This document shows, piece by piece, positions 24,148-25,896 of a stretch of DNA of 64,000 nucleotides. The stretch lies in the sequence record NC_019399.1. One strand, given 5' to 3'. Below the pieces are notes generated by a model that saw only the letters and a program-made list of their open reading frames with translations, was not told the DNA's origin and did not search any database. Made by a program: the position numbers and the translations under genes. This DNA comes from Escherichia phage vB_EcoM_ACG-C40. The number at the start of each line of letters is the position of its first letter. Position 1 is the stretch's first letter.

Positions 24148-24480
24148 TTATTTTACTACTTTCCAGTGCTGCATGTCAAGTTTACCAACTTTTTTCATCT
24201 TCTCAATTAAGCGTTCGGCGCGTTGGCGAGCTGTAACATAATACCATTCACCTAATTCATTTTGTTCAATTTTTCCAACGATTACTGTGTTCAATTCATA
24301 AATCCAACCAGTAAAGAAATTATGAACTTGAATTGTAAAGGTGAAATCTGTTCCCATGCCTTCTGTTGTTTCTACTTCAATAATATCACCTTCAACTGCC
24401 ATTAAGAACCACATAGTTTCATCATATTTACCGTTGAAGCATTTAGTTTTAACTGCAGCGTTCAGATTAATCGTTTTCAT
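24148..24480 (-). CDS. hypothetical protein (110 aa)
   Basis: ORF track. Confidence 0.55.
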   Translation of the reverse strand: MKTINLNAAVKTKCFNGKYDETMWFLMAVEGDIIEVETTEGMGTDFTFTIQVHNFFTGWIYELNTVIVGKIEQNELGEWYYVTARQRAERLIEKMKKVGKLDMQHWKVVK

Positions 24481-24504: not shown

Positions 24505-24540
24505 ATAATACTATCACAAAGGAACCATACTGTAAACAAC
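24505..24540 (-). promoter_or_regulatory. T4 early-type promoter (GTTTAC -35, TAGTAT -10)
   Basis: - strand GTTTACA-18nt-TAGTAT upstream of gene starting 24480. Confidence 0.5.
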
Positions 24541-24552
24541 TTTGTGCAATCT

Positions 24553-24590
24553 TTGGAAAATAAAAAAGGACTCCCGAAGGAGTCCTCAAC
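24553..24590 (-). terminator. rho-independent terminator downstream of small basic-protein gene
   Basis: - strand gaggactcc-ttcg-ggagtcc followed by TTTTTTATTTT. Confidence 0.65.
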
Positions 24591-24767
24591 TTATGCTTTC
24601 TGCTTACCAAAACGAGAAGCATCATCTCGAAGAACCGCACGTGCTCGGCGCATGATCTTCTCAACAGTTTGATTGATACGAGAGTTCGACCCACGCTTGT
24701 AGCCAGCGCGTTTAGAATCACCAACTTTCTTTTCAACTGCTTTCTTTGCTTTAGCTTGTTTTGCCAT
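24591..24767 (-). CDS. small highly basic protein (58 aa from MAKQAKAKK...)
   Basis: ORF track 24591..24809, start re-assigned to the Met preceded by an SD; Lys/Arg-rich; visibly GC-richer codons than neighbours. Confidence 0.55.
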   Translation of the reverse strand: MAKQAKAKKAVEKKVGDSKRAGYKRGSNSRINQTVEKIMRRARAVLRDDASRFGKQKA

Positions 24768-25164
24768 TATAAATTCTCTTTTAAATGAAAATGCAGGACT
24801 TATTGGCATTGCCTGCGAAAGCCCTCAAGGGGGTACTTAGGTTTTGAGTATTTACCGACAGGATAACCATAAACCCGTCATCATACCTTATAGCTCTTAT
24901 CTGTTGCACACCGTTAGCTTAAAGGTTCCGGGTTCGATTTCTCGAGGATAAGATATATACTGATGGATATATAGGCCTTGAGGCGTACTCCCGATTGGCC
25001 ATCACCTCGGGGTAGCATGCACTTGCCGCTATAAGAATAACATTCAAGAGGTACACCGTAAAACTGCCGGGGTCTTAAAACTATAATGATTCGCAAATCA
25101 TTAATCAGACAGTTCGACGGCTCCTCGATTTTAGCTCACACTAAGGCAGTGAATCTCCAATAAA
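24768..25164. other. GC-rich, ORF-free structured island (candidate structured RNA or regulatory region)
   Basis: about 350 bp without a credible ORF on either strand in a tightly packed genome; long-range complementary pair CCTCAAGG (24823..24830) / CCTTGAGG (24976..24983) and several local GC stems. Confidence 0.4.
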
Positions 25165-25413
25165 TTACTTCAGTGTTACCACAAAGTGACGAACTGCTTT
25201 TCGTGCAGCAGAAGCCAGAGGCTTAGCATATTTAAGTTCATCTTTTTCCTGAAGCTCAGCAGCTAATGCAGTTTGAGCAGGATTCAGATGTTTGAAATAA
25301 CGCAGGATTTCAAGAGCTTCGGCTTCAACATCAATAGATGCGCCATAGTTTTCGTGACCATTATTCCATGCGTTTCGTTGCAGTTCAAGAGCGTGTTGTA
25401 ATTGTTTAATCAT
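25165..25413 (-). CDS. rIII: lysis-inhibition accessory protein rIII
   Basis: 82-aa ORF MIKQLQHALELQRNAWNNGHENYG..., recognised. Confidence 0.85.
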   Translation of the reverse strand: MIKQLQHALELQRNAWNNGHENYGASIDVEAEALEILRYFKHLNPAQTALAAELQEKDELKYAKPLASAARKAVRHFVVTLK

Positions 25414-25560: not shown

Positions 25561-25896
25561 TCACTTATAAAGACACGGAATAGCTTTATAGTGACAGGTA
25601 ACGAATTTTTGTTTAATTTCTTTTGGCTGCTTAAGACCCAGAGCTACAAAAGGATGCGGAACATTTCGAATTTGACCAACTGGAAGAGAAGTCAAATCGC
25701 CAACTTCGCAGAAACCTTCAGGAACATCAGGACCGACAGAGTGAACTACACACAGTTCAGGAACTTCACCTTGAACACGTTTACCGATAATAAGTCCTGA
25801 TTCTGTAACTTCTTCATCACCGGCTTGTGCAGGTTCAGAAACTAAAATAACATATTCACCGACAGCACGAATTGGTAGCTGTTGTACTTCAGACAT
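25561..25896 (-). CDS. 31: co-chaperonin gp31 (GroES-like)
   Basis: 111-aa [25 protein letters not shown]..., recognised. Confidence 0.9.

What the first reader, a model, noticed from the sequence alone, without database searches (positions are those of the whole stretch)
24768..25164. GC-rich, ORF-free structured island between a small basic-protein gene and rIII
In a genome where genes are packed with overlaps, about 350 bp here carry no credible ORF on either strand, are visibly GC-richer than the AT-rich surroundings, and contain long-range complementarity (CCTCAAGG at 24823..24830 with CCTTGAGG at 24976..24983, 150 nt apart) plus several local GC stems. That pattern fits a structured RNA (ncRNA, ribozyme remnant, long structured leader) or a horizontally acquired block better than ordinary intergenic spacer. 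I do not recall a matching element in T4.
Basis: seen in the sequence. Interest (0 to 1): 0.6.

Follow-up and report, generated by a model that had tools for sequence, protein, structure and literature searches.

The report
New four-way-junction RNA downstream of rIII
The gene-free, GC-rich stretch between rIII and gene 30.9 of this T4-like phage is a string of small folded RNA modules. Its centre is a 148-nucleotide RNA with strong evolutionary support for its fold, matching no catalogued RNA family and missing from phage T4 itself.

Summary
Window 24768-25164 is a 396-bp spacer with no credible ORF between 30.9 and rIII, both on the minus strand. GC is 42% against 36% for the window.

The spacer is a mosaic of RNA modules. 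The centre (24887-25035, minus strand) folds as a four-way junction with no unpaired linkers:
- 98.9% of pair cells are canonical, and 24 of 44 pairs carry compensatory changes.
- All 7 helices are supported; 0 of 500 shuffles reach the observed values.
- G:U pairs favour the minus strand.
- Unpaired bases are more conserved than paired ones.

It has no Rfam 15, tRNA/tmRNA, E. coli or bacterial-genome match. About 409 of 1110 rIII-carrying phage records have it, always between rIII and 30.9: Klebsiella 161/162, Escherichia 129/559. T4 lacks exactly this block, although its rIII and gp30.9 proteins are identical to the window's.

Next to it lies a covarying H-type pseudoknot that T4 shares.

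Function is unknown. My best guess is an autonomously folding factor-binding RNA cassette on the rIII-30.9 transcript, not a classical riboswitch.

Verdict: a real RNA family absent from Rfam 15. Interest is about 0.7.

The parts
24768..25164 (-). Intercistronic spacer of the rIII -> 30.9 transcription unit. This is the whole 'island', built of RNA modules H1, A, C, B, Hs and T plus a weak hairpin over the 30.9 ribosome-binding site (SD).
   Evidence: Searches give gene positions and the T4 and fPS-65 annotation. One search shows the mosaic of modules in 40 related loci.
25133..25158 (-). Module H1: a small hairpin with a conserved loop (GGAGAUUCACUGCCUUAGUGUGAGCU). It recurs in other genera at different positions.
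   Evidence: The stem register (A:U / G:C / U:A changes) was read by eye only.
25044..25128 (-). Module A: a long irregular hairpin (UCGAGGAGCCGUCGAACUGUC...GGCAGUUUUACGGUGUACCUCUUGA) with an inner hairpin at 25084-25103. T4 shares it.
   Evidence: 25 predicted pairs, 4 with compensatory changes among 8 closely related sequences. Support is modest.
24887..25035 (-). Module C: the 148-149-nt four-way-junction RNA that forms the GC-rich centre of the finding. It is absent from T4.
25028..25035 (-). C-P1 5' strand (CUUAUAGC), which pairs with 24887-24894 (GCUAUAAG). This is the closing stem. Its sequence differs between lineages while pairing is kept.
   Evidence: helix 1: 4 of 5 pairs have compensatory changes. 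One search gives the flanks.
24974..25027 (-). C-P2 arm. It comprises a GGC/GCC stem, a conserved internal loop (5' AAGUGCAU, 3' CUCAAG) and the distal hairpin P2a (24983-25016).
   Evidence: helices 2 and 3: 10 of 16 pairs have compensatory changes. P2a has a different sequence in EcS1 and fHe-Yen9-01 but still pairs.
24954..24973 (-). C-P3 hairpin: a 7-bp stem with loop CCAUCA.
   Evidence: helix 4: 3 pairs have compensatory changes and 99.3% of cells are paired.
24895..24953 (-). C-P4 arm:
- P4 stem: UCUUAUC (24947-24953) with GAUAAGA (24895-24901).
- P5: a hairpin with a GAAA tetraloop (24934-24945).
- P6: a hairpin with a conserved 15-nt loop (24908-24933).
- Joiner GCAACA (24902-24907), invariant in all 20 sequences.
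   Evidence: helices 5-7: 7 pairs have compensatory changes and 100% of cells are paired. One search gives the invariant unpaired bases.
24840..24886 (-). Module B: an H-type pseudoknot.
- Stem 1: GACGGG (24874-24879) with CCUGUC (24857-24862).
- Stem 2: loop GGUU (about 24865-24868) with AACC (about 24840-24843).

It is present in T4 and in almost all enterobacterial T4-like phages examined.
   Evidence: Stem 2 covaries: TAGTAGTT/AACTACTA, TTGTGAG/CTCACAA, CAAGGTT/AATCTTG, GTTGGTT/AACCAAC. In this window stem 2 is only 4 bp.
24821..24836 (-). Module Hs: the small hairpin GUACCCCCUUGAGGGC.
   Evidence: Local pairing covaries (CCCC/GGGG, CCUC/GAGG, CCCUUUAUGGGG). One search lists the same stem on the plus strand.
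24793..24816 (-). Module T: the hairpin GCAGG...CCUGC, followed by AUUUUCAUUU.
   Evidence: Read from the sequence. It did not pass the terminator scan.
24773..24792 (-). Weak AU-rich hairpin (AUUUUC/GAGAAU) that can cover the 30.9 Shine-Dalgarno sequence.
   Evidence: Inference from the sequence. Related phages have an analogous CUCC...GGAAGA hairpin just before the 30.9 start. No statistical test was run.
24591..24767 (-). Gene 30.9: a 58-aa basic protein of unknown function, 100% identical to T4 gp30.9.
25165..25413 (-). Gene rIII: the lysis-inhibition accessory protein, 100% identical to T4 RIII.
24508..24587 (-). Terminator hairpin (24566-24587) plus an early-type promoter (24508-24536) downstream of 30.9. 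It marks the end of the transcription unit that contains the island.

Best explanation
**What it is.** The island is the transcribed minus-strand spacer of the rIII -> 30.9 operon. It is an array of independently folding RNA modules that are shuffled, swapped and lost between T4-like phages.

**The centre.** The GC-rich centre (24887-25035) is a 148-nt RNA. It folds into a four-way junction with no unpaired linker nucleotides:
- P1 is the closing stem.
- The P2 arm carries a conserved internal loop.
- P3 is a simple hairpin.
- The P4 arm carries a GNRA hairpin, a large-loop hairpin and an invariant GCAACA joiner.

**How it probably works.**
- Shown: the fold, the strand, the cassette behaviour and the phage-restricted distribution.
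- Inferred: because its unpaired nucleotides are the most conserved part, it probably adopts a compact tertiary structure. The two long arms may dock side by side, possibly through GCAU/GUGC pairing.
- Inferred: the compact fold would bind a specific partner, either a host factor or a conserved phage factor.
- Inferred: it acts as an accessory RNA domain carried on, and perhaps cut out of, the rIII-30.9 transcript.
- It does not look like a classical riboswitch coupled to the 30.9 start.
For: **Fold**
- RNAalifold on a plain MAFFT alignment gives 44 pairs, 17 of them with compensatory changes.
- On 20 homologues, 98.9% of pair cells are canonical and 24 of 44 pairs have compensatory changes.
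- 0 of 500 shuffles reach any of the five measures. Slid controls give only 24-42% pairing. All 7 helices have at least one compensatory pair.

**Strand**
- 43 G:U cells make the minus strand 98.9% canonical against 93.9% for the plus strand.
- The minus strand is the strand of the flanking genes.
- The P5 loop reads GAAA on that strand.

**Non-coding:** stops occur in all six frames in every homologue.

**Binding-type conservation:** unpaired columns have mean identity 0.95 (37 of 55 invariant). Paired columns have 0.895 (35 of 88 invariant).

**Constraint or exchange:** the core is 85-98% identical between genera whose rIII DNA is 67-75% identical.

**Cassette behaviour**
- T4 lacks exactly the block from one P1 strand to the other.
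- rIII and gp30.9 are 100% identical to T4.
- Other Tequatrovirus/Mosigvirus phages carry a different hairpin module (D) at the same site.

**Arguments against a coupled riboswitch**
- The order of modules B and C differs between genera.
- The sequence after P1 differs between genera.
- The distance to the 30.9 start varies.
- No terminator is detected in the island.

**Transcription:** rIII is expressed from early, middle and late promoters (PMC9409239).
Against: - No expression data exist for any phage that carries the element. No discrete RNA ends, promoter or terminator could be identified.
- No partner protein or ligand is indicated by any linked gene.
- Sequence diversity is limited: about 27 distinct sequences, and many unpaired positions are invariant. 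The proposed tertiary contact therefore cannot be tested by covariation.
- High identity across genera could partly reflect recent lateral exchange rather than selection (EnC07 and SonariX have rIII 97% identical but core only 89%).
- The P5 loop is UAAA or GUAA in some lineages, so a strict tetraloop-receptor contact is doubtful.
- T4 and 701 of the 1110 rIII-bearing phage records (63%) lack it, so it is dispensable.
Confidence: 0.5

Rival explanations
1. Riboswitch-like cis regulator. The four-way junction would be an aptamer for a metabolite or ion and would control translation or transcription of 30.9 downstream.
For: The architecture is aptamer-like: a variable closing stem P1, a multi-helix junction and highly conserved unpaired nucleotides. 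It lies in the 5' leader of 30.9. A weak hairpin can cover the 30.9 Shine-Dalgarno sequence (inference). Known four-way-junction aptamers exist (SAM-I, yybP-ykoY, NiCo); that is from my own knowledge.
Against: - No Rfam riboswitch model matches, even at E<=10.
- What follows P1 differs by genus: module B in some, the Hs hairpin in others.
- 100-250 nt of other modules separate it from the start codon.
- No terminator is found in the island.
- T4 keeps an identical 30.9 and leader end without it.
Confidence: 0.2
2. mRNA stability or processing element. The modules would act as barriers to 3' exonucleases or RNase E, setting the half-lives of the rIII and 30.9 segments of the polycistronic RNA.
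For: The position is intercistronic. Several stable hairpins are arrayed in tandem. T4 intercistronic hairpins are known to influence mRNA decay (my own knowledge). The modules can be shuffled without regard to order, as expected for generic barriers.
Against: A generic barrier needs neither a four-way junction nor 37 invariant unpaired nucleotides. It also would not need 85-98% identity across genera.
Confidence: 0.15
3. Processive antitermination RNA, working like HK022 put or Bacillus EAR. It would bind the transcribing RNA polymerase and let it read through the terminators between the early genes downstream.
For: The element is intra-operonic and indifferent to spacing and order. It lies upstream of the strong terminator after 30.9 at 24566-24587. 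EAR is likewise intercistronic (my own knowledge).
Against: There is no similarity to put or EAR models in Rfam. There is no direct evidence. T4 manages the same operon without it.
Confidence: 0.08
4. Self-cleaving ribozyme that cuts the rIII-30.9 transcript.
For: A junction without linkers, with conserved internal loops in adjacent arms, recalls the natural hairpin ribozyme and four-way twister-sister forms (my own knowledge). Self-cleaving ribozymes are common in phage DNA.
Against: No ribozyme family matches at permissive thresholds in the window or in 7 homologues. The hairpin-ribozyme loop A and loop B signatures are not present on inspection.
Confidence: 0.05
5. Not a functional RNA. The block would be a decayed gene, a DNA-level site, or neutral laterally transferred DNA.
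For: The block comes and goes between nearly identical genomes. Many GenBank records annotate small hypothetical CDSs over it.
Against: Compensatory changes occur in all seven helices, and G:U asymmetry favours the transcribed strand. All frames carry stops and the homologues differ by frame-breaking indels. It sits at one syntenic position, in one copy, in about 409 genomes.
Confidence: 0.02

Closest known systems
Orphan structured RNA motifs found by comparative genomics in phage and bacterial intergenic regions (the Weinberg/Breaker-type motif collections now in Rfam)
   Same: It is defined by covariation. It has a multi-helix junction and conserved unpaired bases. It is phage-associated and its function is not obvious from context.
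   Different: It matches none of the 4227 Rfam 15 models. It is restricted to T4-like phages of Enterobacteriaceae and fixed at one locus.
PeSL mobile regulatory cassettes of T4-type phages (Arbiol et al. 2010, PMC2839356; Comeau et al. 2014, PMC4122927)
   Same: Short non-coding modules in a hyperplastic region are gained, lost and swapped between close relatives. A typical PeSL lies just downstream at 24508-24587.
   Different: A PeSL is a terminator stem-loop plus an early promoter. Module C has neither and is a complex folded RNA. Here the shuffled units are RNA structure modules inside one transcript.
T4 stable RNAs rnaC and rnaD (species 1 and 2)
   Same: These are small non-coding RNAs of about 120-140 nt of unknown function, encoded by T4-type phages and released from a longer transcript.
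   Different: They lie at a different locus, the tRNA cluster. The covariance model of module C finds nothing there (best E = 3.3).
Four-way-junction aptamers and ribozymes (SAM-I, yybP-ykoY Mn2+, NiCo; hairpin ribozyme, twister-sister)
   Same: The overall logic is shared: a four-way junction whose stacked arms bring conserved internal loops together. The P4 stem UCUUAUC/GAUAAGA and the string ACCCGGAACC superficially resemble SAM-I.
   Different: There is no model match. The helix order is not collinear with SAM-I. No coupled expression platform exists. The signature nucleotides of those families are absent.
Intra-operon processive antitermination RNAs (HK022 put, Bacillus EAR)
   Same: They are structured RNAs inside an operon, act on their own transcript, and are indifferent to exact spacing.
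   Different: There is no sequence or structure similarity, and no evidence that this RNA binds RNA polymerase.

Membership tests
Any Rfam 15 family (riboswitches, ribozymes, sRNAs, leaders) | Covariance-model score at or above the gathering threshold, or at least a consistent sub-threshold match across homologues | tested here: not met
   No gathering-level hit in the 64-kb window. No hit on the core at E<=10 in the 951-nt or 181-nt searches. None on the core of 7 diverse homologues at E<=5.
tRNA / tmRNA / tRNA-like | Cloverleaf or tmRNA architecture detectable by ARAGORN | tested here: not met
   ARAGORN finds 0 genes in the window. The plus-strand GGTTCGATT string is the complement of part of helices P5/P6.
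T4 rnaC / rnaD stable RNAs | Homology to the T4 species 1 and 2 RNAs | tested here: not met
   Model R1, searched with filters off on the T4 tRNA/rnaC/rnaD region, gives a best hit of 7.5 bits, E = 3.3, outside those genes.
PeSL cassette | Terminator-type stem-loop followed by a sigma-70 early promoter | tested here: not met
   No promoter-like or terminator-like site on the minus strand inside 24768-25164. The true PeSL is at 24508-24587.
Riboswitch (generic) | Conserved aptamer with a closing stem P1 and conserved unpaired nucleotides | tested here: met
Riboswitch (generic) | Expression platform directly coupled to the aptamer and conserved with it | tested here: not met
   The sequence downstream of P1 differs by genus, the B/C order flips, and no terminator is present.
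Riboswitch (generic) | Ligand binding | not testable with these tools
   Needs in-line probing or ITC.
Self-cleaving ribozyme | Site-specific self-scission | not testable with these tools
   Needs an in vitro cleavage assay. No ribozyme model matches.
Protein-coding gene or leader peptide | An open frame conserved across homologues | tested here: not met
   All six frames have at least one stop in all 20 homologues. Indels of 1, 3 and 7 nt occur.
H-type pseudoknot (module B only) | Hairpin loop pairs with downstream single strand, with covariation | tested here: met
   Every sequence keeps its own loop/tail complement while the sequences differ. Mean helix score is 13.3 for a sequence's own loop and tail, against 10.6 for loops matched with tails of other sequences. 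No preQ1 or other pseudoknot family matches.

The most novel reading that the evidence does not exclude
Module C is a new functional RNA class, specific to T4-like phages of Enterobacteriaceae. It could be a new aptamer or ribozyme, or a decoy or sponge RNA that binds a host factor (for example a defence, RNA-decay or translation component). It is exchanged between phages as a self-contained RNA cassette. On this reading, the rIII-30.9 spacer is a dedicated 'RNA cassette site', where alternative structured RNAs (C, D) are swapped the way accessory protein genes are.
Probability: 0.3. Interest if true: 0.85.

Novelty: new variant of a known kind. Interest (0 to 1): 0.7.

Why it matters
T4-like phages are among the best-studied viruses, yet this RNA appears to have escaped notice. 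It is in no Rfam family, and I found its sequence in no paper. A likely reason is that T4 and the other classical laboratory phages lack it.

It is nearly universal in Klebsiella T4-like phages (161 of 162 records), many of which are isolated as phage-therapy candidates. It comes and goes between otherwise identical E. coli phages. That pattern is typical of host-adaptation or counter-defence functions, which so far are almost all assigned to proteins.

The case is also easy to test:
- T4 itself is a natural deletion of the cassette. Its rIII and gp30.9 proteins are identical to the window's.
- The RNA is a clean 148-nt module.
- The neighbouring protein RIII has been tied to ribosomal protein S1 and RNA cleavage (PMC9409239).

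The finding also shows that many small CDSs annotated over this spot in GenBank records are probably false gene calls.

Tried and rejected
- **Known RNA families:** Rfam at gathering and permissive thresholds, on the window and on 7 homologues, gave nothing on the core. The only local hits are terminator look-alikes at 24552-24635. ARAGORN found nothing.
- **T4 rnaC/rnaD:** no homology.
- **Single-sequence folding:** z-scores of only -0.3 to -1.7 on either strand, so uninformative alone.
chance level and no covariation.
- **Bacterial or host origin or mimicry:**
  - There is no match in 5,426 E. coli genomes.
  - A 19-mer gave no hit in GTDB genomes.
None of the 80 checked is recognised by the model.
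  - The metagenome scan likewise stopped at 120 stretches. Among the 80 checked, only 7 near-identical phage copies are real.
- **More distant T4-like phages:** the model, with filters off, found nothing in the rIII regions of Acinetobacter-type, RB49-type and other distant phages.
- **Literature:**
  - Searches on rIII/30.9, PeSL and structured RNAs in phages found no description.
  - The conserved sequence itself appears in no paper text.
  - The 2023 catalogue of viral structured RNAs does not mention T4-like or Klebsiella phages in its main text.
- **SAM-I resemblance** (UCUUAUC/GAUAAGA, ACCCGGAACC): rejected, because the helices are not collinear and no model matches.
- **Hairpin-ribozyme resemblance** (CCAGAGAAA in EcS1): rejected, because that string is a covarying tetraloop hairpin.
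- **Mini-ORF starting at the AUGAUG of module B:** rejected, because neither its length nor its frame is conserved.
- **Promoters for module C:** no late (TATAAATA) or MotA-type middle promoter is convincing on inspection.
- **Pfam and PHROGs on gp30.9:** unknown function.

Full report
**1. Setting**

The window is a Tequatrovirus, a close T4 relative. The 951 bp around the finding are 99.4% identical to Escherichia phage KIT06 and match 984 phage records.

All genes here are on the minus strand:
- gene 31: 25561-25896
- rIII: 25165-25413
- 30.9: 24591-24767, a 58-aa basic protein
- 30.8: 24148-24480

RIII and gp30.9 are 100% identical to the T4 proteins. A terminator hairpin (24566-24587) and an early-type promoter (24508-24536) follow 30.9. 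The island therefore lies inside a transcription unit that reads rIII -> island -> 30.9. In T4, rIII is transcribed from early, middle and late promoters (PMC9409239).

**2. The observation**

The spacer 24768-25164 is 396-397 bp. Only short ORFs of at most 60 aa overlap it. GC is 42.3% (core 46.6%) against 35.9% for the window. Only 5.8% of equal-sized windows are as GC-rich.

The 8-mers CCTCAAGG (24823-24830) and CCTTGAGG (24976-24983) are there. However, the island has 3 inverted 8-mer pairs against 1.4 expected, and 19% of shuffles reach 3. Single-sequence folding is not significant on either strand, with z-scores from -0.3 to -1.7. The composition and ORF-free status are confirmed. The cited long-range pairing is not more than chance.

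**3. Comparison with relatives**

T4 has a 244-bp spacer at this position. Aligned with the window, T4 lacks one discrete block of about 153 bp, window 24887-25039. The flanks are nearly identical.

The same block is about 95% identical in Klebsiella phage Roth17, where the surrounding spacer is otherwise unalignable. A search with the block alone finds 410 places in 409 phage records, essentially one copy per genome.

In every locus I opened, the block lies between rIII and a 30.9-like gene of about 59 codons. Those loci cover Tequatrovirus, Dhakavirus/JS98, Jiaodavirus-type Klebsiella phages, Karamvirus, Marfavirus, Kagamiyamavirus EcS1, Serratia phage 4S, Edwardsiella PEi20 and Yersinia fHe-Yen9-01.

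Against the 1110 records that encode RIII, the block's frequency by host genus is:

| Host genus in record name | Records with the block | Records with rIII |
|---|---|---|
| Klebsiella | 161 | 162 |
| Enterobacter | 27 | 36 |
| Escherichia | 129 | 559 |
| Shigella | 27 | 79 |
| Acinetobacter | 0 | 69 |

T4 lacks the block. So do the 'Enterobacteria phage' records, which do not appear among the listed hit organisms.

**4. The block is a structured RNA on the minus strand**

RNAalifold on a MAFFT alignment of 17 distinct copies predicts 44 pairs, 17 of them with compensatory changes. I built a covariance model from that alignment (R1). It recovers 20 copies among 50 rIII loci, including the divergent fHe-Yen9-01 copy at 104.7 bits.

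On that 20-sequence alignment:
- 98.9% of 874 pair cells are canonical.
- 24 of 44 pairs have changes on both sides.
- 0 of 500 shuffles reach the observed value for any of the five measures.
- Sliding the 3' partners by 1-3 columns drops pairing to 24-42%.
- All seven helices carry at least one compensatory pair.

This alignment is fitted to the model, which leans it towards the structure. The independent MAFFT result shows the same picture.

43 G:U cells make the minus strand 98.9% canonical against 93.9% for the plus strand. All six frames have stops in every copy, and copies differ by 1-, 3- and 7-nt indels. The block is therefore not coding.

**5. Anatomy (coordinates; 5'->3' on the minus strand)**

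| Element | Window coordinates | Notes |
|---|---|---|
| P1 | 25035-25028 with 24894-24887 | Closing stem; sequence changes freely while pairing is kept (UAUAGC/GCUAUA, UAAAC/GUUUA, CAUAC/GUAUG, ACAC/GUGU) |
| P2 | within 25027-25017 and 24982-24974 | GGC/GCC stem enclosing an internal loop (AAGUGCAU / CUCAAG) |
| P2a | 25016-24983 | Distal hairpin; has a different sequence in EcS1 and fHe-Yen9-01 but still pairs |
| P3 | 24973-24954 | 7-bp hairpin |
| P4 | 24953-24947 with 24901-24895 | Encloses P5, P6 and the joiner |
| P5 | 24945-24934 | Hairpin with GAAA loop; stem varies CUCGA/UCGA, CCGA/UCGG, CUGA/UCAG, CAGA/UCUG |
| P6 | 24933-24908 | Conserved 15-nt loop |
| Joiner | 24907-24902 | GCAACA, invariant |

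No unpaired nucleotides separate P1, P2, P3 and P4, so the junction has no linkers.

Unpaired columns are more conserved than paired ones: mean identity 0.95 with 37 of 55 invariant, against 0.895 with 35 of 88 invariant. The core is 85-98% identical between most genera, whereas the neighbouring rIII DNA is 67-75% identical. EnC07 and SonariX have nearly identical rIII (97%) but cores only 89% identical. That points to lateral exchange as well as constraint.

A possible tertiary contact is GCAU in the P2 loop pairing with GUGC at the P6/joiner boundary. This is inference only, because both strings are invariant.

**6. The rest of the island**

The spacers of about 40 related loci show that the island is a mosaic of recurring modules.

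- **H1 (25133-25158)** is a small hairpin with a conserved loop. It has been read by eye only.
- **A (25044-25128)** is a long irregular hairpin shared with T4. 4 of its 25 pairs have compensatory changes among 8 close relatives.
- **C** is the four-way junction described above.
- **B (24840-24886)** is an H-type pseudoknot.
  - It is present in T4 and in almost all enterobacterial T4-likes examined: 72 nhmmer hits, 39 distinct sequences.
  - Its loop/tail helix covaries: GGTT/AACC, TAGTAGTT/AACTACTA, TTGTGAG/CTCACAA, CAAGGTT/AATCTTG, GTTGGTT/AACCAAC.
  - In this window stem 2 is only 4 bp.
- **Hs (24821-24836)** is a small hairpin with internal covariation.
- **T (24793-24816)** is another hairpin, followed by a weak hairpin over the 30.9 Shine-Dalgarno sequence (inference).

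The order of modules differs by genus. It is B then C in Klebsiella and Serratia phages, and C then B in Tequatrovirus, Karamvirus and EcS1. Some Tequatrovirus/Mosigvirus phages carry a different hairpin module (D) exactly where C sits here.

**7. What it is not**

- **Rfam and tRNA scans:** no Rfam 15 family matches at gathering or permissive thresholds, in the window or in seven diverse homologues. ARAGORN finds no tRNA or tmRNA.
- **T4 stable RNAs:** the model finds no relation to rnaC or rnaD.
- **E. coli genomes:** there is no match in 5,426 genomes.
- **GTDB genomes:** an exact 19-mer gave no hit. Of at least 120 gapped-pattern hits, none of the 80 checked is recognised by the model.
- **Metagenomes:** among the 80 stretches checked, only 7 near-identical phage copies are real.
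- **Literature:** the conserved sequence occurs in no paper text. Searches gave no description of an RNA here.
- **PeSL:** the PeSL cassettes of T4-type phages (PMC2839356, PMC4122927) are terminator-plus-promoter units. Module C has neither.

**8. Mechanism**

*Shown:*
- It is a minus-strand RNA fold under selection.
- It is a single copy at a fixed locus and restricted to phages.
- It is dispensable and behaves as a cassette.

*Inferred:*
- Gain and loss occur with no change in any linked gene, so the RNA probably works with a host factor or a conserved phage factor.
- Its unpaired bases are the most conserved part, so it probably forms a specific tertiary structure that binds something.
- Its downstream context, order and spacing are not conserved and no terminator is present. 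A classical riboswitch coupled to 30.9 is therefore unlikely.

My best guess is an autonomously folding, factor-binding RNA domain on the rIII-30.9 transcript, possibly excised from it. My confidence is about 0.95 that it is a real structured RNA and about 0.35-0.4 for this mode of action. The report's confidence field gives 0.5 for the two combined.

The rivals and my probabilities are:
- a riboswitch-like leader (0.2)
- a decay or processing barrier (0.15)
- put/EAR-like antitermination (0.08)
- a self-cleaving ribozyme (0.05)
- non-functional DNA (0.02)

**9. Verdict**

The central element is an RNA family absent from Rfam 15, of a familiar general kind: a phage intergenic structured RNA. 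It sits in an unusual cassette-like array. The neighbouring pseudoknot B, shared with T4, also has no Rfam match. Experiments are needed to establish function.

Noticed in passing
window 24840-24886 (minus strand); T4 NC_000866 within 130541-130784: Module B is a covarying H-type pseudoknot, with conserved loop GUUnnnGGUUAU and spacer GUUAAAUA. It is present in T4 itself and in almost all enterobacterial T4-like phages examined (39 distinct sequences). It has no Rfam match. It sits next to rIII, whose protein binds ribosomal protein S1 (PMC9409239).
   Followed up: partly
L031, L033, L036-L039, L042, L044, L046 (about 180-230 nt downstream of the rIII stop); L048: An alternative hairpin module 'D' (…CACGCGUCAGAAAAAGGUUAUCUGUCUAAGUCGUG…) occupies exactly the position of module C in other Tequatrovirus/Mosigvirus phages. 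Its inner stem covaries (CAGA/UCUG to CAGC/GCUG). This suggests a swap site for RNA cassettes.
   Followed up: partly
window 24508-24587 (minus strand): A typical PeSL-type unit lies downstream of 30.9. It has a UUCG-loop terminator hairpin (24566-24587) followed by an early-type promoter (24508-24536). The weak Rfam hits here (Atu_C8, Phe_leader) are only terminator look-alikes.
   Followed up: yes
GenBank records matched (for example PQ657791.1 XNO92794.1/XNO92795.1; OR352951.1, ON210139.1, OL870316.1, OL964745.1, MZ170040.1): Many records annotate small 'hypothetical protein' CDSs over the RNA, or even a '1,4-alpha-glucan branching enzyme, GH-13-type'. These are probably false gene calls, because no frame is conserved.
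   Followed up: partly
L004 about 1918-1990; L010, L057 (between module C and the 30.9 start): Klebsiella and Serratia phages carry a further long hairpin (GGGAGCUACAACCGAAAGAACUGUCGAAAGAAGUUGAACCUCGGAAGAACGUGCUCCC) followed by a CUCC...GGAAGA hairpin over the 30.9 Shine-Dalgarno sequence. Neither was analysed.
   Followed up: no
OR584013.1 (Pseudomonas phage PsgM02F) and MG065689.1 (Campylobacter phage A110a): A record labelled as a Pseudomonas phage carries this T4-type spacer at about 95% identity. A Campylobacter phage record holds a 23-aa stretch 100% identical to RIII. These could be mislabelling or contamination.
   Followed up: no
window 25165-25413 and 24591-24767: RIII and gp30.9 are 100% identical in protein sequence to T4, while the spacer between them differs by a 153-bp block. 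This illustrates very recent cassette-level recombination.
   Followed up: yes
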